Notes under the pieces: generated by a model
Seen by the model: the letters and a program-made list of their open reading frames with translations, nothing else
Told to the model about the DNA's origin: nothing
Database searches by the model: none
Assembly (NCBI RefSeq): GCF_964213995.1
Contig: NW_027590783.1
Location: forward strand, 62,001-126,000
Length of the DNA stretch: 64,000 nucleotides
Origin: Mustelus asterias
Taxonomy: Eukaryota
Reading direction: 5' to 3'
In this document: one piece after another, positions 100 to 61,346 of the stretch
Layout: every line of letters starts with the position of its first letter
Position numbering within the stretch: the stretch's first letter is position 1
Translations under genes and position numbers: made by a program

Positions 100-858
100 T
101 CATTTGTGAACTCGCTGGTGTCTCTGCAAGTTGCATAACAATGTGAATCCCTTCCCACACATGGAGCAGGTGAACGGTCTCTCCCCGGTGTGAACTCGCT
201 GGTGTTTCATCACGGTTGCTGAATGTTTGAATCCCCTTCCACACACAGAGCAGTTGAATGGCTTCTTCTCAGTGTGAACTCGCTGGTGTGTCAGCAGGTT
301 TGATGAATCACTGAATCCTCTCTCACACTCAGAGCAGGTGAATGGCTTTTCCCCTCTGTGGACCCGCTGGTGTGTTAGCAAGTGGGATGACTGAATGAAT
401 CCCTTTCCACAGTCAGAGCAATTGAACGGTCTCTCTCCGGTGTGAACTCGCTGGTGTGTCAGTCGTGTGGATGAATTACTGAATACTTTTCCACAAACAG
501 GGCAGGTGAATGGCTTCTCCCCAGTGTGAACTCGCTGGTGTGCCAGCAAATGGGATGATTGAATGAATCCCTTCCCACAGTCAGAGCAGGTGAATGGTCT
601 CTCCCCACTGTGAATTCGCTGGTGTCTCCGCAGTGTGGGTAAATCACTGAATCCCTTCCCACACTCAGAACAGGTGAACGGCCTCTCCCCGGTGTGAACT
701 CGCTGGTGTGTAAGCAGAAGAGAGAATTGACTAAATCCCTTCCCACACTGAGAGCAGGTGAATGGTCTCTCCCCGGTGTGACTGCGTCGATGAGTTTCCA
801 GCTTTGATGGGTAATTGAATCCCTTCCCACAGTCCCCACATTTCCACCGTTTCTCCAT
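100..858 (-). CDS. C2H2 (Kruppel-type) multi-zinc-finger protein, 9 tandem fingers, no KRAB/SCAN domain visible
   Basis: 252-aa ORF with nine C-x2-C-x12-H-x3-H fingers joined by TGERPF/TGEKPF-type linkers. A candidate splice acceptor (ccttttacag, minus strand) at 1214-1223 opens the terminal exon. A frameshifted relic finger lies just upstream of the ATG (~860-950). Confidence 0.93.
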   Translation of the reverse strand: MEKRWKCGDCGKGFNYPSKLETHRRSHTGERPFTCSQCGKGFSQFSLLLTHQRVHTGERPFTCSECGKGFSDLPTLRRHQRIHSGERPFTCSDCGKGFIQSSHLLAHQRVHTGEKPFTCPVCGKVFSNSSTRLTHQRVHTGERPFNCSDCGKGFIQSSHLLTHQRVHRGEKPFTCSECERGFSDSSNLLTHQRVHTEKKPFNCSVCGRGFKHSATVMKHQRVHTGERPFTCSMCGKGFTLLCNLQRHQRVHK

Positions 859-2440: not shown

Positions 2441-2551
2441 AAAGTCGACTACACCTGGCATTCCCAGGAGGTCTCCTATTCAAGTACTGACCAGGCCTGA
2501 GTCTGCTTAGCTTCCGGGATCAGGCGTTTTCAGACTAGTATGGTTGGAGGC
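2441..2551 (-). pseudogene. 5S rRNA pseudogene / 5S-derived sequence
   Basis: Reverse complement matches 5S (GCC...CCATAC...GAAGCTAAGCAG...GGCCTGGTCAGTACTTGAAT.GGAGACC.CCTGGGAATGCCAGGTG...TTT), with a ~10-nt internal deletion and several substitutions. Confidence 0.85.
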
Positions 2552-3077: not shown

Positions 3078-6000
3078 GCCACATCTGTGAGTGGGAAAGA
3101 TTGGACTGTCCAGCCAGTCCACCATATTGGCCGTTCGCTTTGCGTGTTGGCCAGTATGGTGTGCTCCAGGCAGGGGGCGGGCAGAGGATAAGGAGTTCAA
3201 GGCGGGCTTAATGCGCGCCTTGCGGTGAGCTTTTGGAAATGTGGCCGCTGGGAGGAACGCCTTGGTCGGCGTGAAGTTTCTGTTTCAAGTGCTTGGGTTC
3301 GTGACTTGTGCAAGAACTTTTTGTTTCGGCTGGGGCTTGTTGAATGCTGCTCTCGCTGGGATTCCTGTGCCTTGAAAGGCGTGGCCCAGGTAGATGCAAT
3401 CTCGGAAGACCCAAGCCAGGGAGGAGCCATTTGGGAACTATGGTTTCGGAAGGTTCAGCCGCGGAAGGTGTGACCCCAGACGGTGCAGCCCCAGTGGGTG
3501 TGATTTTGGAAGTTCTGGCCCGGAGTGGTGGACTTTGGAGGACTGTAGTTGAGCGTTGTCGACTTCGGACGGTGGAATGTTGATGGGCGAAGCTCTGGAA
3601 GGCGATGCCTCCAAAATGTTTCACAATTGTATGGTTGTTCATGGATTGTTTGTTATTGTAATATGTGGTTTTCCTGTTATGATAGTTGGTGGTTTGTTCT
3701 GGCCCCCGTCTATTTTCTTGCGTTATTTGTGGCCTGGGGGGCATCCCCCCCTGGATGGAGTCACCCCCGGGGGGTGTCACATCCACTTGGGGAAAGTTCT
3801 GGGTGGTGAAGCCCCGGACATAGTAACACCAGAGGGATTTTTATTCTCCGGGAGAAAAATTGGGAAGGCAGGCCCGAACTGAGTACCCTGGAGAGACTCT
3901 CCCACCGCCCCGGCTGAAATTCCGGAAGGCAGTCCGGATTGAGTAGGCGGGGTGGTTTCCCCCATTTCCCCCCTCCGGCTGAACATCCGTAAGGTGTAAC
4001 CCCCGGATATGAGTACCACTGGAGGGTTGCATCCCCCGGCAGGTGGACAAACCCAGGGGACGGTGCCCTTATGCTTCAGTGTTTATTTTTTTGTTGTGTA
4101 CAGTTGTAGTGTTGTTAATGTTTGTAGATTTGTAGATTATGATTTGTAAATGGAGGTGTATTTTGAGGGCAATGCCCTGGAAAACTGTAATTGACGATGA
4201 ACCCTTCCGAAATGGAAGGTAGTAATTGATAAATGGATGGTGTTAGCCATCGGTAATGTATTTTTCATGAATTGTTTGTTATTGTAATATGTGGTTTTCC
4301 TGTTATGATAGTTGGTGGTTTGTTCCGGCCCCCGTCTATTTTCTTGCGTTACTTGTGGCCTGGGGGGGCATCCCCCCCTGGATAAAGTCACCCCCGGGGG
4401 GTGTGACATCCACTTGGGGAAAGTTCTGGGTGGTGAAGCCCCGGACATAGTAACACCAGAGGGATTTTTATTCTCCGGGAGAAAAATTGGGAAGGCAGGC
4501 CCGAACTGAGTACCCTGGAGAGACTCTCCCACCGCCCCGGCTGAAATTCCGGAAGGGATTCCGGATTGAGTAGGCGGGGTGGTTTCCCCCATTTCCCCCC
4601 TCCGACTGAACATCCGTAAGGTGTAACCCCCGGATATGAGTACCACTGGAGGGTTGCATCCCCCGGCAGGTGGACAAACCCAGGGGACGGTGCCCTTATG
4701 CTTCAGTGTTTATTTTTTGTTGTGTACAGTTGTAGTGTTGTGTTCATGTTTGTAGATTTGTAGATTATAATTTGTAAATAGAGGTGTATTTTGAGGGCAG
4801 TGCCCTGGAAAACTGTAATTGACGATGAACCCTTCCGAAATGGAAGGTAGTAACTGATAAATGGATGGCGTTAGCCATTGGTAATGTATTTTTTTCACAT
4901 TTGTTCTTTGTGTATTTGTAATTGTTTTGTATTAACGTATTTGTAATAAACAAAAAGAAAGCCACATCTGTGAGTGGGAAAGATTGGACTGTCCAGCCAG
5001 TCCACCATATTGGCCGTTCGCTTTGCGTGTTGGCCAGTATAGTGTGCTCCAGGCAGGGGGCGGGCAGAGGATAAGGAATTCAAGGCGGGCTTAATGCGCG
5101 CCTTGCGGTGAGCTTTTGGAAATGTGGCCGCTGGGAGGAACGCCTTGGACGGCGTGAAGTTTCTGTTTCAAGTGCTTGGGTTCGTGACTTGTGCAAGAAC
5201 TTTTTGTTTCGGCTGGGGCTTGTTGAATGCTGCTCTCGCTGGGATTCCTGTGCCTTGAAGGGCGTGGCCCAGGTAGATGCAGTCTCGGAAGACCCAAGCC
5301 AGGGAGGAGCCATTTGGGAACTATGGTTTCGGAAGGTTCAGCCGCGGAAGGTGTGACCCCAGACGGTGCAGCCCCAGTGGGTGTGATTTTGGAAGTTCTG
5401 GCCCGGAGTGGTGGACTTTGGAGGACTGTAGTTGAGCGTTGTCGACTTCGGACGGTGGAATGTTGATGGGCGAAGCTCTGGAAGGCGATGCCTCCGAAAT
5501 GTTTCACAATTGTATGGTTGTTCATGGATTGTTTGTTATTGTAATATGTGGTTTTCCTGTTATGATTGTTGGTGGTTCCGGCCCCCGTCTATTTTCTTGC
5601 GTTATTGTGGCCTGGGGGGCATCCCCCCCTGGATAAAGTCACCCCCGGGGGGTGTGACATCCACTTGGGAAAATGCTCTGGGTGGTGAAGCCCCGGACAT
5701 AGTAACACCAGAGGGATTTTTATTCTCCGGGAGAAAGATTGGGAAGGCAGGCCCGAACTGAGTACCCTGGAGAGACTCTCCCACCGCCCCGGCTGAAATT
5801 CCGGAAGGCAGTCCGGATTGAGTAGGCGGGGTGGTTTCCCCATTTCCCCCCTCCGGCTGAACATCCATAAGGTGTAACCCCCGGATATGAGTACCACTGG
5901 AGGGTTGCATCCCCCGGCAGGTGGACAAACCCAGGGGACGGTGCCCTTATGCTTCAGTGTTTATTTTTTTGTTGTGTACAGTTGTAGTGTTGTTAATGTT

Positions 6001-9000
6001 TGTAGATTTGTAGATTATGATTTGTAAATGGAGGTGTATTTTGAGGGCAATGCCCTGGAAAACTGTAATTGACGATGAACCCTTCCGAAATGGAAGGTAG
6101 TAATTGATAAATGGATGGTGTTAGCCATCGGTAATGTATTTTTCATGGATTGTTTGTTATTGTAATATGTGGTTTTCCTGTTATGATAGTTGGTGGTTTG
6201 TTCCGGCCCCCGTCTATTTTTTTGCGTTATTTGTGGCCTGGGGGGCATCCCCCCCTGGAAAAAGTCACCCCCGGGGGGTGTGACATCCACTTGGGGAAAG
6301 TTCTGGGTGGTGAAGCCCCGGACATAGTAACACCAGAGGGATTTTTATTCTCCGGGAGAAAAATTGGGAAGGCAGGCCCGAACTGAGTACCCTGGAGAGA
6401 CTCTCCCACCGCCCCGGCTGAAATTCCGGAAGGGATTCCGGATTGAGTAGGCGGGGTGGTTTCCCCCATTTCCCCCCTCCGGCTGAACATCCGTAAGGTG
6501 TAACCCCCGGATATGAGTACCACTGGAGGGTTGCATCCCCCGGCAGGTGGACAAACCCAGGGGACGGTGCCCTTATGCTTCAGTGTTTATTTTTTGTTGT
6601 GTACAGTTGTAGTGTTGTGTTAATGTTTGTAGATTTGTAGATTATGATTTGTAAATGGAGGTGTATTTTGAGGGCAATGCCCTGGAAAACTGTAATTGAC
6701 GATGAACCCTTCCGAAATGGAAGGTAGTAACTGATAAATGGATGGCGTTAGCCATTGGTAATGTATTTTTTTTCACATTTGTTCTTTGTGTATTTGTAAT
6801 TGTTTTGTATTAACGTATTTGTAATAAACAAAAAGAAAGCCACATCTGTGAGTGGGAAAGATTGGACTGTCCAGCCAGTCCACCATATTGGCCGTTCGCT
6901 TTGCGTGTTGGCCAGTATAGTGTGCTCCAGGCAGGGGGCGGGCAGAGGATAAGGAATTCAAGGCGGGCTTAATGCGCGCCTTGCGGTGAGCTTTTGGAAA
7001 TGTGGCCGCTGGGAGGAACGCCTTGGACGGCGTGAAGTTTCTGTTTCAAGTGCTTGGGTTCGTGACTTGTGCAAGAACTTTTTGTTTCGGCTGGGGCTTG
7101 TTGAATGCTGCTCTCGCTGGGATTCCTGTGCCTTGAAAGGCGTGGCCCAGGTAGATGCAATCTCGGAAGACCCAAGCCAGGGAGGAGCCATTTGGGAACT
7201 ATGGTTTCGGAAGGTTCAGCCGCGGAAGGTGTGACCCCAGACGGTGCAGCCCCAGTGGGTGTGATTTTGGAAGTTCTGGCCCGGAGTGGTGGACTTTGGA
7301 GGACTGTAGTTGAGCGTTGTCGACTTCGGACGGTGGAATGTTGATGGGCGAAGCTCTGGAAGGCGATGCCTCCGAAATGTTTCACAATTGTATGGTTGTT
7401 CATGGATTGTTTGTTATTGTAATATGTGGTTTTCCTGTTATGATAGTTGGTGGTTTGTTCCGGCCCCCGTCTATTTTTCTTGCGTTATTTGTGGCCTGGG
7501 GGGCATCCCCCCCTGGATGGAGTCACCCCCGGGGGGTGTGACATCCACTTGGGGAAAGTTCTGGGTGGTGAAGCCCCGGACATAGTAACACCAGAGGGAT
7601 TTTTATTCTCCGGGAGAAAAATTGGGAAGGCAGGCCCGAACTGAGTACCCTGGAGAGACTCTCCCACCGCCCCGGCTGAAATTCCGGAAGGCAGTCCGGA
7701 TTGAGTAGGCGGGGTGGTTTCCCCATTTCCCCCCTCCGGCTGAACATCCGTAAGGTGTAACCCCCGGATATGAGTACCACTGGAGGGTTGCATCCCCCGG
7801 CAGGTGGACAAACCCAGGGGACGGTGCCCTTATGCTTCAGTGTTTATTTTTTGTTGTGTCCAGTTGTAGTGTTGTGTTAATGTTTGTAGATTTGTAGATT
7901 ATGATTTGTAAATGGAGGTGTATTTTGAGGGCAATGCCCTGGAAAACTGTAATTGACGATGAACCCTTCCGAAATGGAAGGTAGTAACTGATAAATGGAT
8001 GGCGTTAGCCATTGGTAATGTATTTTTTTCACATTTGTTCTTTGTGTATTTGTAATTGTTTTGTATTAACGTATTTGTAATAAACAAAAAGAAATCCACA
8101 TCTGTGAGTGGGAAAGATTGGATTGTCCAGCCAGTCCGCCATATTGGCCGTTCGCTTTGCGTGTTGGCCAGTATAGTGTGCTCCAGGCAGGGGGCGGGCA
8201 GGCAGAGGATAAGGAGTTCAAGGCGGGCTTAATGCGCGCCTTGCGGTGAGCTTTTGGAAATGTGGCCGCTGGGAGGAACGCCTTGGTCGGCGTGAAGTTT
8301 CTGTTTCAAGTGCTTGGGTTCGTGACTTGTGCAAGAACTTTTTTGTTTCGGCTGGGGCTTGTTGAATGCTGCTCTCGCTGGGATTCCTGTGCCTTGAAAG
8401 GTGTGGCCCAGGTAGATGCAATCTCGGAAGACCCAAACCAGGGAGGAGCCATTTGGGAACTATGGTTTCGGAAGGTTCAGCCGCGGAAGGTGTGACCCCA
8501 GACGGTGCAGCCCCAGTGGGTGTGATTTTGGAAGATCTGGCCCGGAGTGGTGGACTTTGGAGGACTGTAGTTGAGCGTTGTCGACTTCGGACGGTGGAAT
8601 GTTGATGGGCGAAGCTCTGGAAGGCGATGCCTCCGAAATGTTTCACAATTGTATGGTTGTTCATGGATTGTTTGTTATTGTAATATGTGGTTTTCCTGTT
8701 ATGATAGTTGGTGGTTTGTTCCGGCCCCCGTCTATTTTCTTGCGTTATTTGTGGCCTGGGGGGCATCCCCCCCTGGATGGAGTCACCCCCGGGGGGTGTG
8801 ACATCCACTTGGGGAAAGTTCTGGGTGGTGAAGCCCCGGACATAGTAACACCAGAGGGATTTTTATTCTCCGGGAGAAAAATTGGGAAGGCAGGCCCGAA
8901 CTGAGTACCCTGGAGAGACTCTCCCACCACCCCGGCTGAAATTCCGGAAGGCAGTCCGGATTGAGTAGGCGGGGTGGTTTCCCCATTTCCCCCCTCCGGC

Positions 9001-9983
9001 TGAACATCCGTAAGGTGTAACCCCCGGATATGAGTACCACTGGAGGGTTGCATCCCCCGGCAGGTGGACAAACCCAGGGGACGGTGCCCTTATGCTTCAG
9101 TGTTTATTTTTTTGTTGTGTACAGTTGTAGTGTTGTGTTAATGTTTGTAGATTTGTAGATTATGATTTGTAAATGGAGGTGTATTTTGAGGGCAATGCCC
9201 TGGAAAACTGTAATTGACGATGAACCCTTCCGAAATGGAAGGTAGTAATTGATAAATGGATGGTGTTAGCCATCGGTAATGTATTTTTCATGGATTGTTT
9301 GTTATTGTAATATGTGGTTATTCTGTTATGGTAGTTGGTGGTTTGTTCTGGCCCCCGTCTATTTTCTTGCGTTATTTGTGGCCTGGGGGGCATCCCCCCC
9401 TGGATAAAGTCACCCCCGGGGGGTGTGACATCCACTTGGGGAAAGTTCTGGGTGGTGAAGCCCCGGACATAGTAACACCAGAGGGATTTTTATTCTCCGG
9501 GAGAAAAATTGGGAAGGCAGGCCCGAACTGAGTACCCTGGAGAGACTCTCCCACCGCCCCGGCTGAAATTCCGGAAGGGATTCCGGATTGAGTAGGCGGG
9601 GTGGTTTCCCCCATTTCCCCCCTCCGGCTGAACATCCGTAAGGTGTAACCCCCGGATATGAGTACCACTGGAGGGTTGCATCCCCCGGCAGGTGGACAAA
9701 CCCAGGGGACGGTGCCCTTATGCTTCAGTGTTTATTTTTTTTGTTGTGTACAGTTGTAGTGTTGTGTTAATGTTTGTAGATTTGTAGATTATGATTTGTA
9801 AATGGAGGTGTATTTTGAGGGCAATGCCCTGGAAAACTGTAATTGACGATGAACCCTTCCGAAATGGAAGGTGGTAACTGATAAATGGATGGCGTTAGCC
9901 ATTGGTAATGTATTTTTTCACATTTGTTCTTTGTGTATTTGTAATTGTTTTGTATTAACGTATTTGTAATAAACAAAAAGAAA
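3078..9983 (+). repeat. Tandem array of four near-identical non-coding units (3078-4960, 4961-6838, 6839-8094, 8095-9983); probable non-autonomous non-LTR retroelement copies
   Basis: Periods are 1883, 1878, 1256 and ~1888 bp. Each unit is a ~560-bp head, two copies (one in unit 3) of a ~626-bp sub-repeat, and a T/G-rich tail ending AATAAACAAAAAGAAA. Junction CCACATCTGTGAG precedes every unit and CCAACATCTGAGAG follows the last. Confidence 0.95.
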
Positions 9984-10000
9984 CCAACATCTGAGAGGTT

Positions 10001-29748: not shown

Positions 29749-32700
29749 TCAGTACCACTTACCCGCCTGATCCCCATAACCCTTAATTCCCTTACCGATC
29801 AGGAATCCATCCATCCGCGCTTTAAACATATTCAGCGAGGTAGCCTCCACCACCTCAGTGGGCAGAGAATTCCAGAGATTCACCACCCTCTGGGAGAAGA
29901 CGTTCCTCCTCAACTCTGTCTTAAACCGACCCCCCTTTATTTTGAGGCTGTGTCCTCTAGTTTTAACTTCCTTACTAAGTGGAAAGAATCTCTCCGCCTC
30001 CACCCTATCCAGCCCCCGCATTATCTTATAAGTCTCCATAAGATCCCCCCTCATCCTTCCAAACTCCAACGAGTACAAAGCCAATCTCCTCAGCCTCTCC
30101 TCATAATCCAAACCCCTCATCTCCGGTATCAACCTGGTGAACCTTCTCTGCACTCCCTCCAATGCCAATATATCCTTCCTCATATAAGGGGACCAATACT
30201 GCACACAGTATTCCAGCTGCGGCCTCACCAATGCCCTGTACAGGTGCATCAAGACATCCCTGCTTTTATATTCTATCCCCTTCGCAATATAGGCCAACAT
30301 CCCATTTGCCTTCTTGATCACCTGTTGTACCTGCAGACTGGGCTTTTGCGTCTCATGCACAAGGACCCCCAGGTCCCTTTGCACGGTAGCATGTTTTAAT
30401 TTGTTTCCATTGAGATAGTAATCCCATTTGTTATTATTTCCTCCAAAGTGTATAACCTCGCATTTCTCAACGTTATACTCCATTTGCCATATCCTCGCCC
30501 ACTCACTCAGCCTGTCCAAATCTCTCTGCAGATCTTCTCCGTCCTCCACACGATTCACTTTTCCACTTATCTTTGTGTCGTCTGCAAACTTCGTTACCCT
30601 ACACTCCGTCCCCTCCTCCAGATCATCTATATAAATGGTAAATAGTTGCGGCCCGAGTACCGATCCCAGCGGCACGCCACTAGTTACCTTCCTCCAACCG
30701 GAAAAACACCCATTTATTCCGACTCTTTGCTTCCTGTCGGATAGCCAGTCCCCAATCCACTTTAACACACTACTCCCAACTCCGTGTGCCCTAATCTTCT
30801 TCAGCAGCCTTTTATGGGGCACCTTATCAAACGCCTTTTGGAAATCCAAGAACACCGCATCCACCGGTTCTCCTCCATTAACCGCCCTAGTCACATCTTC
30901 ATAAAAATCCAACATGTTCGTCAAGCACGACTTTCCCCTCATGAATCCATGCTGCGTCTGATTGATGGAACCATTTCTATCCAGATGCCCTGCTATCTCC
31001 TCTTTAATAATGGATTCCAGCATTTTCCCTACTACAGACGTTAAGCTGACCGGCCTATGGTTACCCCCCTTTTGTCTCCTTCCTTTTTTAAACAGCGGCG
31101 TAACATTAGCCGTTTTCCAATCAACCGGCACTACCCCAGAATGCAACGAGTTTTGATAAACAATCACTAACGCATCCACTATTACCTCTGACATTTCTTT
31201 CAATACCCTGGGATGCATTCCATCCGGACCCGGGGACTTGTCCACCTTCAGTCCCATTAGTCTACCCAGCACTGCCTCTCTGGTAACATTAATTGTATTA
31301 AGTATTTCTCCTGCTGCCAACCCTCTATCGTTAATATTTGGCAAACTATTTGTGTCCTCCACCGTGAAGACCGACACAAAAAACTTATTTAAAGACTCAG
31401 CCATATCCTCATTTCCCACTATTAACTCCCCCCTCTCGTCCTCCAAGGGTCCAGCATTCACTCTAGCCACTCTATTCCTTTTTATATCTTTATAAAAACT
31501 TTTACTATCATTTTTTATATTAATTGCTAGCCTAGCTTCATAGTCTATCCTTCTTTTCTTTATCGCTTTCTTAGTCTCTCTTTGTTGTTTCTTAAATTTT
31601 TCCCAATCACTTGTTTCTCCACTATTTTTGGCCACTCTGTACGCAGCTGTTTTTATTTTAATGCTCTCCTTTATTTCCTTCATTATCCACGGCTGGTTCT
31701 CCCTTTTCTTACAATCCTTGTTTTTTGCTGGAATATATTTTTGCTGAGAACTGAAAAGGATCTCCTTAAAAATCCTCCACTGTTCCTCAGCTATCCTACC
31801 TGCCAGCCTGCTCTCCCAGTCTACCTCAGCCAATTCATCCCTCATCCTATCATATTTCCCTCTGTTCAAACAGAGGACACTGGTTTGGGACCAAACTTTC
31901 TCCTCTTCCATCTGAATCAGAAATTCGACCATATTGTGGTCACTAGACCCAAGAGGGTCCTTCACAATAAGATCCTTAATTCTACCTACCTCGTTACACA
32001 ATACCAGATCCAAAATAGCTCGTTCCCTCGTCGGTTCCGTAACATGCTGTTCAAGGAAACTATCCCGACAGCATTCTAAGAACTCTTCCTCCATTCCACC
32101 CTTACCGACTTGAGTCTGCCAGTCAATGTGCATGTTGAAGTCCCCCATGATTATTGCCGTTCCGTTTTTACACGCATCCCTTATCTGCTTGTTTATAGCC
32201 CTCCCTACCTCAACATTATTATTCGGGGGCCTATATACCACACCTACTAGTGTCTTTCTCCCTCTACTATTCCTCATCTCTACCCATAATGATTCCACGT
32301 TTTGTTCCTCAGAGCCTATGTCATCCCTCAGTACTACCCTGATATTATCTCTTATTAATAGCGCGACCCCACCACCTTTTCCTTCCTGTCTATTCTTCCT
32401 AAACGCCTGCTACCCCTGGATATTCATCTCCCAGTCCTGGTCACCATTCAGCCACGTTTCTGTAATGGCCACTAGATCGTACCCACTTGTGCTGATTTGC
32501 ACCATCAACTCATTTACCTTGTTCCGAATGCTTCGTGCATTCAGGCAAAGTGTCCTTATTCCAGCTTTTATCTGGACCCGCTTTGATGAGTCGCGAACAC
32601 CCTCTCCCTCTACTCCCTTATCTAAATTACCGCCTTCATTCACTTGCACCCTCTCCTCTACCATTAATTTTGTAATTCCCCTTACCCCTGCATCCTCCCC

Positions 32701-32754
32701 CCCATCAATTAGTTCCTTGATCCTAGTCAACTCTTCTAGCTCCCCTCCCCCCAA
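29749..32754 (-). pseudogene. CR1 ORF2: APE endonuclease plus reverse transcriptase, single in-frame stop
   Basis: LNARSI..K and AITETWL (32410-32754) continue in frame past one TAG at 32410-32412 into YRPP, MGDFN, SDH, QHGF and KFADD (849-aa ORF, 29749-32298). Confidence 0.93.
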
Positions 32755-32759
32755 CCTAT

Positions 32760-33698
32760 CTAGTTTAAATTCTCCCCAGTAGCCTTAGCCAACCTACCGG
32801 CCAGGATATTGGTCCCCGTGTGATTCAAGTTCCACCCGTTTTTTGTATACAGATCACCCCTGCCCCTAAAGAGGTCCCAATGGTCCAGGAACCTGAATCC
32901 CTGCCCCCTGCACCAGTCCCTCAGCCACACATTCATCTTCCACCTCACTCCATTCCTGCCCTCACCTTCCCGTGGCACAGGCAGTAATCCTGAGATTACT
33001 ACCTTTGCTTTCCTCTTTCTCAGCTGTCTCCCTAATTCCCTGTACTCCCTTTTCATGACCCCTTCCCCCTTCCTACCCACATCAGCGGTACCAATATGTA
33101 CCGCTACCTCAGGCTCCTCTCCCTCCCACCTCAGGTTTTCCGGGACGCGACTAGCGACATCCTGGATCCCGGCCTCAGGGAGGCAGACCACCATGCGAGA
33201 ATCCCGCCTACCTCCGCAGAAACGCCTGTCTGTCCCCTTCACCATCGAGTCCCCGATTAATACCGCCTTCCTCCTCTTTTCCTTAGCCCTCTGAGTTACA
33301 GGGCTGGACTCCACTGCGGAGACACGGCCACTGCTGCTTCCCCCAGGCGGGCTGTCCCCCCCAGCAGTATTCAAGCAGGAGTACTTGTTGTGCAGGGGCA
33401 AATCCACTGGGGTGCTCTCAACCACCCTAGCCTTACCCTTCCTGGCCGTCACCCACTTGGCCTCCTCCCGTGGCCCTGGTGTGACCACCTGATGATAGCT
33501 CTTGTCTATCACCTCCTCATTCTCCCTCATCAGCCTAAGATCCTCGAGCTGCAGTTCCAGCTCCCTAACACGGTCCCTCAGGAACCGCAGCTCGACACAC
33601 CCCTCACAGATGTGGATGTCCGGGAGGCCAGATGCCTCCAGGACCTCCCACATCCTACACTGGGAACAACACACTGGTTTCACACTCATACTGGACAC
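32760..33698 (-). CDS. CR1 ORF1 (Zn-finger/coiled-coil plus SGNH esterase domain)
   Basis: CSQCRMW...ICEGC...LRDRVRELELQL followed by IGDSMVKG, HIGTAD and DGWNLN-like SGNH blocks; open for 312 aa. Confidence 0.9.
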   Translation of the reverse strand: MSSMSVKPVCCSQCRMWEVLEASGLPDIHICEGCVELRFLRDRVRELELQLEDLRLMRENEEVIDKSYHQVVTPGPREEAKWVTARKGKARVVESTPVDLPLHNKYSCLNTAGGDSPPGGSSSGRVSAVESSPVTQRAKEKRRKAVLIGDSMVKGTDRRFCGGRRDSRMVVCLPEAGIQDVASRVPENLRWEGEEPEVAVHIGTADVGRKGEGVMKREYRELGRQLRKRKAKVVISGLLPVPREGEGRNGVRWKMNVWLRDWCRGQGFRFLDHWDLFRGRGDLYTKNGWNLNHTGTNILAGRLAKATGENLN

Positions 33699-45344: not shown

Positions 45345-46685
45345 GCTCCAGAGAAAAAAGTCCAAGGCTATCCATCCTCTCCTTATAACTCAAAATATCT
45401 GTCCCGGCATCATCCGAGTAAATCTTTTCTGCATTCCTTCTCGTTTAATAATATCCTTTCTATAATAGGGTGGCCAGAGTTGTACACAGTATTCCAAGTG
45501 TGGCCTTACCGATGTCTTGTACAACTTCAACAAGACTCCCAACTGCTGTGTTCAATGTTCTGGCCAATGAAACCAAGCATGCTGAATGCCTTCTCTCTCA
45601 CTCTTTCCACCTGTGACTAAACTTTGAAGGAGCGATGAACTGTACCCCGAGATATCTTTTTTTCTAAAACTCTCACCAACGCCCGTCCATTAATTGAGCA
45701 AGTCCTGTCCTGGTTCGATCTACCAAAATGCATCACCTCGCATTCATCTAAAACAAACTCCATTTGCCATTCATCAGCCCACGAGCCCAGTTGATCAAGA
45801 TCCCGCTGCAATCCTCGATAACCTTCTTCACTGTGCACAATGCCTCCAATCTTGGTGTCATCTGCAAACTTACTAACCATGCCTGCTAAATGCTCATCAA
45901 AATCATTAAAATAAATGACACATAACAGTGGAACCAGGACCGACCCTGAGGCGCACCGCTGGTGACAGGCCTCCAATTTGAAAGCAACTCTCTACAACCA
46001 GCCTCTGTCTTCTGTCATCAAGCCAGTTTTACATCCATTTGGCTACCTCACGCGGAATACCGTAAGATTTAACTTGATGCAACAACCTGCCATGCGGTAT
46101 CTTGTCAAATGCCTACTAAAGTCCATGTAGACAACATCAATTACACTGCCCTCATCGACCTTCTTGGTTACCCTTTCAAAAAACTCAATAAAAATTCGTG
46201 AGACATGATTTTCCACTCACAGAGCCATTCTGATCAGTCCTTGCCTCTCTAAATGCCTCCGGATCCTGTTTCTCAGACTGCCTTCGAACAACTTACCCAC
46301 TACAGATGTGAGGCTCAGCGACCTGTAGCTCCCACGCTTCTCCCTGCAACCCTTTTTAAACAGAAGCACGACATTTCCCACCCTCCAGTATTCAATCAGA
46401 TCACCTGGGCTTTCGATGATTCAGATATCTCTGCAAGGGGTCCTGCTATTTCCCCCGAGTCTCCCATAACGTGGGAGGTCGTCTGAAGGAATGAGGTCCT
46501 CTCAATTCGTGTCTGCAAGCAGAGTCAACCATTGAAAATGTTTCGATTTACTTGTGAGCCTGCTATGGTGTTAGATTGTGCTCAGGTTCTCAACCCAAAG
46601 CCCATGTGAAGCAATCCCGCCGTGTGCAAGGAAAATAAATTTACAGAACCAGTACCTTGTCCAATATGCAACAGAAGCAAAATGT

Positions 46686-46775
46686 GGGCTTGTCCGGGAT
46701 TTGAACACGGGACCTCTCGCAAGCTTGTGAATTTCAACACCCAAAGCGAGAATCATACCCCTAGACCAACGAGCC
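46686..46775 (-). tRNA. tRNA-Pro(TGG) with 18-nt intron at 37/38 (intron 46722-46739)
   Basis: GGCTCGTTGGTCTAGGGGTATGATTCTCGCTTTGGG-[tgttgaaattcacaagct]-TGCGAGAGGTCCCGTGTTCAAATCCCGGACAAGCCC. The exons match vertebrate Pro-TGG except for one acceptor and one T-stem mismatch. Confidence 0.85.
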
Positions 46776-48524
46776 TTCGTTGCAGAGATCTGCCAAAATA
46801 ATTATATTTTCATTGTCATCCAAAATAGATCATATATCTGCATTGAAAGTTGAAAATGCTGGAATCGCTCAGAAAGTCAGAGAGCGTGTGTGCACAGAGA
46901 AACAAAGCTTATCTTTCATCTCTCTACCCTTTCACTGAAACTGGGGATGTTTAAAAATGTAGAACGTTTTGCGCAAATGAGATGCAGGAGGGAGGAAACA
47001 TAACATCCTGTTGGGTGGAAGTCAGGAGATGTGAGATGACGGAAACAGAGAATCACAAAGCGATTAACCGCATAATGAGGCCGTTCCGAAGTTCTTTCCA
47101 GGACACACATGTGCTGTGGATAAAGGGGAACCGGTGGATGTAATGTACATAGATTACACTGGAGCCACATTGATGAGGTTGGTGGGTCTTGAGTTTTGAA
47201 AGTTCCACTCAGTAATATAGAAACAAAGGAATCAGGAGCTCAAGTCGGCAAATTCAGCCCTTCGAACCTGCTTCGTCATTCAATCAGATCATGGCTGATC
47301 TCTCCCTGGTCTCAAGTCTACTTTCCCATCTGTTCTTCTTTCCCCTTTAAACATTTTTTGAAACATCAGAAATATATCTATCTCCTTTTGAAACCATTCA
47401 ATCTTTCAGAACCCACCACGCTCTGGGGCAGCGAGTTCCAGAGATTCACCACTCTGCGAGAACACTCTCTGCGAGAAGTACTTCCTCCTCATTTCAGGTT
47501 TAAATCCACCGCCTCTCAACCTATACCTGCGTCTTCTTGTTCTACATTGCCCCATAGAGGAATCATTTGGTCGACGTTTATTCCATTAGTTCCCTTTAGA
47601 CTTTTGTACACCTCGATAACTTCAGCAACTTGTGAGACTATTTCACCTCGCTGTCGACTTCATGTCCTGGCAAACACAGTGGGTGTTGTCATTCGCTGAA
47701 GGAACCAATTATGTCCCATCTAAACAGGATATTCTGAAGGAAATACTTGTCGCTGATGAAAATGATCTGAGATGAAAATAATAAGCAAAGAGATGTATTT
47801 TAAAGTTTATTTAGTCATGTGACAAGAAGGCTTGCATTAACATTTCAATGAAGTTGCTGTGAAAATCCGGTGGTCACCACTCTTGGCTACCTGTTTAGGT
47901 AATTAGCAGAAGAATCAGCATAACCAATCCAAATACCGTGAGCATCTTTGGACTCTGGGAAGAAACCAGAGCATTCGCAGGAAACCCACACAGAAACACG
48001 AAGAACGTGCAGACTCCACACAGACAATGATCCAAGCCAAGCATCGAATGCTTGTCTTTCGCACTGTGAGGTAGCAGTACCAAACGCTACACCACCGTCC
48101 CATAGGGTACGTCAGTTTAAAAATACAGTTCACCCGTTACCCTTGGAGTCCAGTGGTTTGTGTAAGTAACCCCCGCCGCCCCCCCCCCCCCCCCACCCCC
48201 ACCCCATCCCCGGGTTATGTTTGCTTTCAATTCCCGCTCAGGAAAAGAAGAATCATTTGCCGTTTCCAATTTTGAGGATCACGGACAGGGTGAACGGAAA
48301 GCACCTCTTCCCCTTGGTTGCGAAGTTAATCGTTGCTCTCAGCAAATGGTTAAAAGTAATCTGATTTAAACTCTGATGTAAAGCAGATCAGTAGAATCAG
48401 CAGAGTGAAGTTTGCAAGTTTACTTCAGAGGTGGAAATGTCAAGAACAAACTCAGAAAGAGAAGAACAGTGAGAGATTGTAATGAGTTGGAGCTGCTGGC
48501 ATTGTGCGGTGGGCACAGAAATAA

Positions 48525-54185: not shown

Positions 54186-54404
54186 ACTGTACCTAATTTT
54201 ATCTGTAATAGAGAACCTATGTGGCGAAAGAGAGAATATGTTTTTGTGATTGTGTGTGAAGAGAGAGAGACAGATAATGCGCGTATTTTTGTCTGTAAGA
54301 GTGTATGCGTTTGAGAGAGAGAGAAATTGTGCTCAAAACGTGTTTCATTTTAATCAAAAACACATCTAAAAATTATGTTTATCACATTCTGTTATTTTTT
54401 CCAG

Positions 54405-54712
54405 CGCACAGCCAGCTGGATGAACTTTTCCTAAAGCCCACAGTAGTAGCAGTGAGTGAAGGGGGTACTGTGGTGTTGTGCTGTCACTACCCCGCCACAT
54501 ACACAGCAGCTTACCTATATTGGTACGTACAGTACTCGGGACAGGGCCATCAGTACATGCTGTTCAGACATACTGCTGGTAATGAAGAGAACGCGCCGGC
54601 ATTTGGAAAGCGGCTTTTTGCTGTATAGGATGAAATGATCACAAACATCCCTTTGAACATCACAGACACTCAGCTTTCTGACTCAGCCATGTATTACTGC
54701 GCGGCGATGAAG
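54405..54712 (+). pseudogene. T-cell receptor alpha/delta-type V gene segment, pseudogene (in-frame TAG at 54626-54628)
   Basis: Acceptor ttttttccag, then HSQLDELFLKPTVVAVSEGGTVVLCCHY...YLYWYVQYSGQG...RLFAV*DE...LNITDTQLSDSAMYYCAAMK: an Ig V-set with Cys23, Trp41 and D-x-A-x-YYC. Confidence 0.88.
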
Positions 54713-54751: not shown

Positions 54752-56489
54752 AACAATTCGAGGTGGTCTGTGGCATGACCGCATGGTGGATTTGTTAACA
54801 CGCTCTTTCGGAGAATGTGCGCAGACGCGATGGGCCAAGTGGCCACCATCTGCACTGCAGGGATCGCATGCATTCCATGGATCCCGAATTGTCCTGAAAG
54901 TAAATGGCTTGCTGCTGGGTTCAGAGAGTAGTTAAGAGTCAATCTGGAGTCGCATGTCGGTCAGGTTAAGGGGAGATGGCGATGTCCTCCCCTGACGCCC
55001 TGAAGGACATTGCTGAGTAAATTAATTTTCCATGTCAAACGATGGAAATTCACGGTCACCATTATTGATATTAATTTTAAATCACTGACTTTGTTAATAT
55101 AACATTTACCAGTTTCAAATGTTAGAATTGAATCAATTGGTGTGGAAGATTAACATGGCCCTCTGACTAATTAGCGGTGACATTGTCACGTACCCACTGT
55201 TTCCTCTGTAAGGGATGTTATTTTCCAGACATTGCAACAATGACTGCATTGTGAAAGTACCGCATTGGCTGTCACATGCTTTAGGATAACTGGTGGTGCT
55301 GAAATTTATTTGTTTCCAGTTTCCAATTCTCCAGAATGGCTAAACTTTCAATGATTTATCTGAGGAATTTGCTGCTGATAATGAACACTATAAAGCGCTG
55401 AAGGTTTATCTTAGTCTCTAACTCTGACGTTACACAACGTGTTGGTGTTTCATATGCCCTATTAAAACAATTCCCCTTCTCTGTTCTGATCTTCATTACT
55501 CCACTTTAATTTTCAATTGCTTCAAATTGAATTTAATAATTTGATCATCAGAATGAACTTGGAGCGGAAATCTGTGATCTCAGTAGCATTTGCAGGAGCT
55601 GAACATTTTTCTATGAATCATCTTCAGCAGAGAATTACACATCCTTACATTCGGTCACTGTTTCTATCAGGAGTTACATGTAGATGAGAAAATGCCGTTA
55701 GAACCGGATATGCACCTGTATCTGACTGAGGTAACTGGGACCGCAACTGTCAATCTCAGGTGATGGCAGCAGCGAGAAGCTCCACCTCCCGAGCTCGCTT
55801 TATAATAACGTTAGCGGTTAAACTGACAACGGTGCACTTTCTTTTCTCAAGGAATCTTCATTCGGGTAAAGGTGACAAAGTGAGCATTTCATTAATTGGA
55901 CGACTGATTTTGCAAGTTATGGTCACAGCGAGGACGTAAGGTAAAAAAAAATCTGCTGAATAAGTGCTAACTGAAAGTTTAACAGAATTGTCCATAAGTG
56001 AAACTATAAACTTATAAATCCCTTTGAATTTGTGAAATCTTAATCCCGGATTCTAAAAGTCCTGCATGAACTAAACATTCATAAAAGATCCGTTATTTAT
56101 CATATATTCCCTGCACTTTATCAATGTGTGTCACATTCTGTGTTCGCTATGTCGTACATGTGAATTCTAATATATTGCTGTTAAATTAAAGCAATTCGAA
56201 CCTTCAGCAGTGTCAGTGATTACTGTGCGTTCACACACACTCAGTGTGTGAATCGCAGCATTGTACATTGATGCCATTGAATGATAAATGTTACTTCCTT
56301 CTGAATATCATTATCCCGTTTGAAATTTCAATCTTTGCAGTTTGTGCGATTGGATCAGTTACTGTCCGATTGCCAGGAGACTGGCGGCTGTCCCCGACGA
56401 AAAACACTGAATGTTATGACATATGAGCGGGAACAGGAGGAGACACCGAGCCTCACTACGGATAGAACTTTGTTTCCCATTTCATCCAG

Positions 56490-56796
56490 GTTTTAGTCAG
56501 GAATTCTCTGTTACCCAACGCCGTCCAAAAGTGATTAGGACAGAAGGAGACATTACAACTTTAAACTGCATCTACTTTACGACAGAAAATTCCTTCAGTT
56601 TATTCTGGGTCCGACAATTCCTTGGGAGAGAACCTCAAATACTAAATCGCAGATTTTCGGCTGGTTACGAAATTAAAGCGGATTTTGCTCGAAGCCGTTT
56701 CTCCTCTGGGCTGGACAGTTCGAGTGGAAACTTTACCTTAACCGTCTCCAAACTGCGGCTCTCTGATACAGCCATGTACTACTGCGCACTGACTCT
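56490..56796 (+). CDS. T-cell receptor alpha/delta-type V gene segment (V exon, open frame; leader exon not identified)
   Basis: Acceptor ttcatccag, then GFSQEFSVTQRRPKVIRTEGDITTLNCIY...LFWVRQFLGREPQ...RFS...FTLTVSKLRLSDTAMYYCALT; V-set hallmarks with a TRAV/TRDV-like YYCAL end. Confidence 0.92.
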
Positions 56797-56835
56797 CACA
56801 GCGATACCAACCTGTTCAATACTCGTACAATAACT
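56797..56835 (+). promoter_or_regulatory. Recombination signal sequence, 23-bp spacer
   Basis: CACAGCG + exactly 23 nt + ACAATAACT (consensus CACAGTG-23-ACAAAAACC). Confidence 0.9.
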
Positions 56836-61256: not shown

Positions 61257-61346
61257 GGACTCGCCCGGAATTCGAACCCGGGCTTTCTCGCAGCCTTGCG
61301 AATCCCGACAAATAAAGCGAGAATCAAACCCCCAAACCAACGAGCT
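61257..61346 (-). pseudogene. Third intron-containing tRNA-Pro copy, anticodon destroyed
   Basis: 90 nt on the same scaffold; 18-nt insert tgtcgggattcgcaaggc; anticodon position reads TAT. Confidence 0.7.

What the first reader, a model, noticed from the sequence alone, without database searches (positions are those of the whole stretch)
46686..46775. Family of intron-containing tRNA-Pro(TGG) genes (three copies: 20427, 46686, 61257)
Seen: all three copies are exactly 90 nt with an 18-nt insert one base 3' of the anticodon, the canonical 37/38 site. In this copy the intron 3' end (CAAGct) pairs with U32-U33-U34-G35, giving the anticodon-intron helix used by TSEN. Intron sequences diverge but keep their length. 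Known: in human the intron-bearing tRNAs are essentially Tyr-GTA, Ile-TAT, Leu-CAA and Arg-TCT, while Pro-TGG introns are familiar from budding yeast. Inference: a spliced Pro-TGG family, either lineage-specific or ancestrally retained, in this vertebrate. The local copies carry stem mismatches and may themselves be inactive.
Basis: partly seen in the sequence, partly recalled or inferred. Interest (0 to 1): 0.7.

Follow-up and report, generated by a model that had tools for sequence, protein, structure and literature searches.

The report
Shark proline tRNA genes carry introns
In this genome, likely a shark's or ray's, most proline transfer-RNA gene copies carry a short insert exactly where cells cut introns out of tRNAs; the family is likely transcribed and spliced, which would add proline to the four tRNA types usually listed as intron-bearing in animals, while the flagged copy itself is likely damaged.

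Summary
Real, and wider than flagged. 46686-46775(-) is tRNA-Pro(UGG) with an 18-nt insert at 37/38. Exact-anchor searches find 138 insert-bearing Pro copies (64 UGG, 57 AGG, 17 CGG) against 9 without; duplicated contigs inflate this (37 on three contigs). Exons stay 69-71/71 identical between families whose inserts and flanks are near random. The anticodon-intron helix holds in register (0.93 vs 0.35-0.55 slid) and tracks the wobble base. Retrocopies bounded like precursor RNAs point to transcription; one has lost exactly the insert. Arg-UCG is similar (58 vs 1). Best reading: canonical TSEN-spliced introns in tRNA families where animals are said to have essentially none, in an elasmobranch. 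No RNA evidence. The three window copies are decayed: 46686 has two stem mismatches, 20427 a broken B box, 61257 no longer reads UGG. A 2025 preprint notes many intron-bearing tRNA loci in sharks without naming types in the passages seen. This scan reported the same thing before on other DNA.

The parts
46740..46775 (-). 5' exon of tRNA-Pro(UGG), 36 nt, A box intact; anticodon at 46743-46741, G37 at 46740
   Evidence: identical to the intron-free gene in L033
46722..46739 (-). 18-nt insert at 37/38, likely a TSEN intron; U32:G(-3) anticodon-intron pair and 4-bp helix
46686..46721 (-). 3' exon, 36 nt, B box core intact; G52U (46707) breaks a T-stem pair, G68A (46691) breaks an acceptor-stem pair (my Sprinzl numbering)
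46679..46682 (-). TTTT 4 nt downstream, likely Pol III terminator
   Evidence: sequence
20427..20516 (-). Decayed insert-bearing Pro(UGG) copy; insert 20480-20463; 8 of 72 exon changes including C56U and C61U in the B box; likely pseudogene
   Evidence: lies in a 1.2-kb duplicate of 46577-47789 at 73% identity
61257..61346 (-). Decayed Pro-derived copy; insert 61310-61293; anticodon now TAT, 14 of 72 exon changes; likely pseudogene

Best explanation
This is one copy, likely a decaying one, of a large elasmobranch family of proline tRNA genes with a short insert at position 37/38 that is likely a canonical tRNA intron, likely transcribed by RNA polymerase III and predicted to be cut out by the tRNA splicing endonuclease to give ordinary tRNA-Pro. 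Shown: position, copy numbers, exon conservation against diverged inserts and flanks, in-register anticodon-intron helix, precursor-shaped retrocopies. Inferred: Pol III transcription from the internal A/B boxes to a T run; TSEN measuring from the mature domain and using the U32:purine(-3) pair for the 3' cut; RTCB ligation; a mature product identical to that of the intron-free genes. The family turns over by segmental duplication and decay inside tRNA clusters. The 46686 copy keeps promoter, terminator and splice determinants but has two stem mismatches, so it is probably transcribed but a poor tRNA (about 0.3 that it works in translation). Gain in the cartilaginous-fish lineage is more likely (about 0.7) than retention from an ancestor, by parsimony with the published metazoan pattern; untested.
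For: Counts: 64 UGG (48 of 18 nt, 16 of 13 nt) and 74 AGG/CGG insert-bearing matches vs 5 and 4 insert-free with the same anchors. Ten hand-picked intact representatives: exons 69-71 of 71 identical in all 45 pairs, while between families flanks are 0.41-0.56 and inserts 0.17-0.61 identical against a random baseline of 0.45. Across 75 of 79 held copies, divergence at the 38 exon sites not forced by the pattern stays at or below 0.045 while flanks reach 0.41 and inserts 0.59. 37 of 79 copies have no change at those sites. For 50 distinct insert types, positions 32-35 pair in 0.93 of cells in register vs 0.35-0.55 when slid; base 34 and insert base -5 covary: U:A 17, A:U 15, C:G 5 of 41 types. 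124 of 138 matches have a purine at -3 (read by eye), the determinant of human 3' cleavage (PMC8479045). Eight insert-retaining copies have at most 8 nt of upstream homology and are followed by a SINE; in L007 and L021 the shared trailer (54 and 50 nt) ends at the parent's first TTTT (+51). L031 has a 4-nt leader and 43-nt trailer of an insert-bearing family, no insert, then a 5'-truncated CR1-type LINE. A TSEN catalytic-domain exon is in the genome. Inserts are type-specific: in 864 kb only Pro, Arg-UCG, Arg-UCU and Ile-UAU calls had introns.
Against: No spliced RNA or cleavage was observed. About 8 intact-looking intron-free Pro genes cover all three anticodons, so splicing is not forced by necessity. 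18 of 33 near-full-length copies in the 864 kb sampled carry 7 or more exon changes. Pattern searches favour intact copies (34 of 72 exon bases forced), representatives were chosen as intact, and families are related, so the covariation rests on a few events. 14 CGG copies have U at -3, no anticodon-intron pair. L031 is a single event, 1 of 15 insert-free retrocopy-like loci examined; it lies 5.5 Mb from intron-free genes, its leader match sits in a palindrome arm, no clear target-site duplication was seen, and the TG repeat at the insert ends allows a DNA-level deletion. Many families lack a TTTT within 60 nt.
Confidence: 0.8

Rival explanations
1. The insert-bearing copies are unspliced pseudogenes or a tRNA-derived repeat: an old insertion disabled one gene, segmental duplication multiplied it, and the few intron-free genes do all proline decoding.
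For: All three window copies are damaged; 18 of 33 sampled copies are decayed; the copies sit in duplicated blocks; intron-free genes exist for all anticodons.
Against: Exons are near-invariant across families whose inserts and flanks are at random similarity, including stems outside the A/B boxes; the insert tracks the wobble base; flanks are shared over kilobases among cluster copies, unlike a SINE.
Confidence: 0.1
2. The genes are kept for a non-decoding role (Pol III/TFIIIC chromatin sites, or precursor-derived small RNAs) and are transcribed but spliced poorly.
For: Retrocopies point to transcription and 8 of 9 from insert-bearing families keep the insert; 14 CGG copies lack the anticodon-intron pair; copy number far exceeds the intron-free set.
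Against: Retrocopies of intron-free genes also keep leader and trailer, so they sample primary transcripts and retention is expected; acceptor stem, anticodon arm and helix register are conserved, which promoter function alone does not need.
Confidence: 0.08
3. Assembly artefact.
For: 22.6 kb of the window is 99.6% identical to C71 and three copies of the 90-mer are identical with 99.8% identical flanks, so some copies may be alleles assembled twice.
Against: 50 different insert types on many contigs, including 20- and 86-Mb ones; redundancy inflates counts but cannot create the inserts.
Confidence: 0.02

Closest known systems
Metazoan canonical intron-bearing tRNA families Tyr-GUA, Ile-UAU, Leu-CAA, Arg-UCU, spliced by TSEN and RTCB (10.1101/2025.06.17.660180; PMC10275265; PMC8479045; passages seen)
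   Same: Short intron at 37/38, pyrimidine-32:purine(-3) pair, helix with the anticodon, sequence varying among family members, mixed intron-bearing and intron-free genes as in human Arg-UCU and Leu-CAA.
   Different: The tRNA is Pro (UGG, AGG, CGG) and also Arg-UCG, types in which the first paper says metazoan introns are essentially absent; dozens of copies; one CGG family lacks the anticodon-intron pair.
Budding-yeast tRNA-Pro(UGG) intron family (10 genes; PMC4090602, passage seen)
   Same: Same isoacceptor and site.
   Different: In yeast every member of an intron-bearing family has the intron and sequences are near-identical (PMC10275265); here intron-free paralogues persist and inserts form several unrelated-looking families. 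No sequence comparison with yeast was made; common origin is not claimed.
Abundant intron-containing tRNA loci in shark genomes (Squalomix preprint 10.1101/2025.06.08.657570; passages seen, figure and supplements not seen)
   Same: [quoted passage not shown]
   Different: The passages seen name no isotype and test neither selection nor splicing; its Fig. 3A or supplements may hold more.

Membership tests
Canonical eukaryotic (TSEN-type) tRNA intron | Insert between nucleotides 37 and 38 | tested here: met
Canonical eukaryotic (TSEN-type) tRNA intron | Anticodon-intron pair, position 32 with intron base -3 | tested here: met
   U32:G in the flagged copy; 44 of 50 insert types; not met in the 14-copy C85 CGG family
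Canonical eukaryotic (TSEN-type) tRNA intron | Helix between anticodon loop and intron | tested here: met
   0.93 paired in register vs 0.35-0.55 slid; covariation with base 34
Canonical eukaryotic (TSEN-type) tRNA intron | Short length (about 14-60 nt in yeast, PMC10275265) | tested here: met
   18 nt here; 13-18 nt in the family, the 13-nt class just under the quoted range
Canonical eukaryotic (TSEN-type) tRNA intron | Intact mature domain after removal | tested here: inconclusive
   Met by 37 of 79 held copies at all free sites; the flagged copy has two stem mismatches
Canonical eukaryotic (TSEN-type) tRNA intron | Cleavage by TSEN and exon ligation in the cell | not testable with these tools
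   Indirect only: insert-free retrocopy L031; TSEN-domain exon present
Functional tRNA-Pro(UGG) gene (flagged copy) | A box, B box, terminator | tested here: met
   (G52U lies next to the B box)
Functional tRNA-Pro(UGG) gene (flagged copy) | Fully paired acceptor and T stems | tested here: not met
   C5-A68 and U52-C62 mismatches
tRNA-derived SINE | Dispersed copies with unrelated flanks, a LINE-derived tail and neutral decay of the tRNA body | tested here: not met
   Cluster copies share kilobases of flank and conserve exons; only isolated retrocopies fit this description

The most novel reading that the evidence does not exclude
Sharks and rays gained new tRNA introns in at least two tRNA bodies (Pro, all three anticodons; Arg-UCG), the intron-bearing genes became the majority and their introns co-evolved with the anticodon after anticodon switches. 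Intron-bearing and intron-free genes give the same mature tRNA, so these animals would have a splicing-dependent tier of proline and arginine tRNA supply; if the CGG family without an anticodon-intron pair is spliced too, their endonuclease would have looser rules than the human one.
Probability: 0.45. Interest if true: 0.7.

Novelty: new member of a known kind. Interest (0 to 1): 0.5.

Why it matters
The animal set of intron-bearing tRNAs is described as fixed at four types. A vertebrate lineage with extra, majority intron-bearing families shows that tRNA introns can be gained (or were widely lost) in vertebrates. Intron-bearing and intron-free genes with identical mature sequence side by side, several intron lineages and three anticodons give a natural test of two open questions: how tRNA introns arise and what they are for. 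It would also explain part of the intron-bearing tRNA excess reported for sharks. The mechanism itself is ordinary.

Tried and rejected
Sequencing runs: no RNA holder listed (4 runs of one study hold the stretch); no read-level check of the locus was obtained. Origin by tandem duplication of the anticodon arm: a duplication ending at G37 of Pro-AGG would give the helix in register at once, but similarity of insert cores to the last 18 exon bases reached p<0.05 in only 4 of 50 types; not supported. Plain MFE folding of the precursors did not return a clean cloverleaf and was not used. Rfam at gathering score misses all three copies, and ARAGORN without intron mode miscalls 61257 as Ile-TAT; both are method limits. 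The V-segment protein gave no taxonomic signal. A 17-base junction search found 12 insert-free loci and no second spliced-looking retrocopy. Literature searches found no paper describing vertebrate Pro introns: 0 papers; listings; passages read in 8 papers; the library lacks most subscription papers, GtRNAdb and Schmidt and Matera 2020 were not readable, and supplements of the two preprints and of PMC12530127 were not seen, any of which may already list these genes. No earlier scan note near this place.

Full report
Observation. The flagged 90 nt read, on the minus strand, as a 36-nt 5' exon, an 18-nt insert (46739-46722) and a 36-nt 3' exon of tRNA-Pro(UGG); ARAGORN in intron mode makes this call. 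The insert starts with TG and the 3' exon starts with TG, so one copy alone cannot fix the site, but relatives whose insert starts with C, G or A place it between 37 and 38. Against the genome's own intron-free gene (L033) the flagged copy differs at 2 of 72 positions, G52U and G68A in my numbering, each breaking a stem pair; the copy at 20427 differs at 8, including C56U and C61U; the copy at 61257 differs at 14 and its anticodon reads TAT.

Setting. The window is G000:C751:62001-126000 of a 3.68-Gb assembly. It is a tRNA cluster built of duplicated blocks, with C2H2 zinc-finger, immunoglobulin V-set and LINE reading frames. All 11 named rows of the 31 relatives of a LINE ORF1 in the window are rays, skates or sharks, so the host is likely an elasmobranch; whether shark or ray I did not test, and my label HE1 for the SINE is recalled. 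Window 41454-64000 is 99.6% identical to a stretch of C71, so unplaced contigs partly repeat others and copy counts are upper-biased.

The family. With the same exact anchors (34 exon bases), the genome has 64 insert-bearing and 5 insert-free UGG matches and 74 insert-bearing (57 AGG, 17 CGG, counted by eye) and 4 insert-free AGG/CGG matches; reversed controls gave 0. On contigs C71, C85 and C19 alone there are 37. Inserts are 13, 14, 17 or 18 nt. About eight intron-free genes look intact, on four large contigs. In 864 kb fetched around insert-bearing loci (a biased sample), 33 of 40 low-stringency Pro hits were near full length; all 33 carry an insert, 15 have at most 4 exon changes and 18 have 7 or more: birth and death. 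ARAGORN calls with introns there were Pro 14 of 14, Arg-UCG 6 of 8, Arg-UCU 2 of 3, Ile-UAU 1 of 3 and none in any other type. Genome-wide, Arg-UCG gave 58 insert-bearing matches and 1 insert-free intact gene; an earlier scan note gave that lead and one search showed it.

Selection. Among 10 representatives that I chose as intact, exons are 69-71 of 71 identical in all 45 pairs, while between families flanks and inserts are near the random baseline of 0.45. Over 75 of 79 held copies (4 with a 3' deletion dropped; pairs with unequal insert length or short flank alignment skipped; pairs not independent), divergence at the 38 unforced exon sites is 0.011-0.045 as flank divergence rises from 0.018 to 0.41 and insert divergence from 0.085 to 0.59. 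An unspliced precursor cannot decode (PMC10275265, passages), so conservation of whole exons is best read as selection on a spliced product.

Splice determinants. Human TSEN measures from the mature domain and needs a pair between position 32 and intron base -3 for the 3' cut (PMC8479045, passages). Over 50 distinct insert types, that pair forms in 44, and positions 32-35 pair in 0.93 of cells against 0.35-0.55 in five slid registers; base 34 and insert base -5 change together (U:A 17, A:U 15, C:G 5, other 4, of 41 long types). These are a few evolutionary events, not 41. Against: a 14-copy CGG family has U at -3.

Fossil transcripts. Of 23 isolated copies examined, 8 keep the insert, share at most 8 nt upstream with their best cluster match and are followed by a SINE within 3-115 nt; two of them (L028, L037) cannot be assigned a parent. 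In L007 and L021 the shared trailer stops at the parent's first TTTT. This points to germ-line Pol III transcription of the subfamily that includes the flagged copy. Of 15 insert-free copies, 14 match intron-free parents best; L031 has the leader and 43-nt trailer of an insert-bearing family, no insert, and then the 3' part of a CR1-type LINE. It is most simply a retrocopy of a spliced, not yet end-trimmed precursor; earlier notes suggested looking for this. It is one event with alternatives: template switching, a deletion between the TG repeats, and an adjacent 354-bp inverted duplicate that begins exactly at the 3' exon. A TSEN catalytic-domain exon is present.

Mechanism. Shown: anatomy, counts, conservation, helix, retrocopy boundaries. 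Inferred: Pol III transcription, TSEN cleavage, RTCB ligation, and use in translation alongside the intron-free genes (0.8 for the family, about 0.3 for the flagged copy). Rivals: dead repeat family (0.10), transcribed but not for decoding (0.08), artefact (0.02). The origin of the inserts is open; tandem duplication was tested and not supported.

Comparison and novelty. It works like, and meets the sequence-level tests of, a canonical tRNA intron; cleavage itself is untested. A 2025 preprint, citing GtRNAdb, says metazoan introns are prevalent in Tyr-GUA, Ile-UAU, Leu-CAA and Arg-UCU and essentially absent elsewhere (10.1101/2025.06.17.660180, passages). Yeast has Pro-UGG introns (PMC4090602, passage). 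[quoted passage not shown] Passages of PMC8450103, PMC10485636 and PMC11408192 added nothing on vertebrate Pro introns. Nine searches found no description, within a library that lacks most subscription journals. This scan holds 21 similar unreviewed notes in at least 9 genomes; I did not check the other genomes and do not count them as support. Verdict: new members of a known kind, interest 0.5.

Noticed in passing
G000 C85, C102, C103, C130, C141, C155 and others; L180-L191: tRNA-Arg(UCG) has 58 matches with 16-22-nt inserts at the intron site against 1 intact insert-free gene.
   Followed up: partly
L032, L091, L094, L108, L213 (C3); L093, L106, L107 (C4); L103, L220 (C10); L104 (C17): Retrocopies of intron-free tRNA-Pro precursors lie on the same large contig as their apparent parent gene, mostly within 0.15-4.5 Mb (one 8.5 Mb), suggesting local insertion of precursor-SINE chimeras.
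   Followed up: partly
L192-L200 (C85-type CGG family): Conserved Pro-CGG family with a shared D-loop variant and U at intron -3, so no anticodon-intron pair; a test case for endonuclease specificity.
   Followed up: partly
L067, L068 (C19:64.52 Mb): Two Pro-AGG genes 1.8 kb apart with unrelated-looking 18-nt inserts, good terminators and a shared D-loop variant; good markers for a splicing test.
   Followed up: partly
L031:800-1153: 354-bp inverted duplicate of the retrocopy that begins exactly at the first base of the 3' exon.
   Followed up: partly
held Pro copies: Inserts diverge faster than flanks in every similarity bin (for example 0.225 vs 0.105); could reflect transcription-linked mutation or a binning effect.
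   Followed up: no
L090 (C4:147246893-147246964): Intron-free Pro-UGG gene with a compensated base-pair swap in the anticodon stem.
   Followed up: no
window 54305-54628 and 56423-56833: Two immunoglobulin V-set segments (antigen-receptor-like) inside the tRNA cluster.
   Followed up: partly
window 100-858 (-): C2H2 zinc-finger array.
   Followed up: no
window 3078-9997: Array of 0.6-3-kb repeats at 95-99% identity.
   Followed up: no
window 29749-33689 (-): CR1-type LINE with esterase-like ORF1 and an 842-aa endonuclease/reverse-transcriptase frame.
   Followed up: partly
window 2443-2551 (-): 5S rRNA-like match, 62.9 bits.
   Followed up: no
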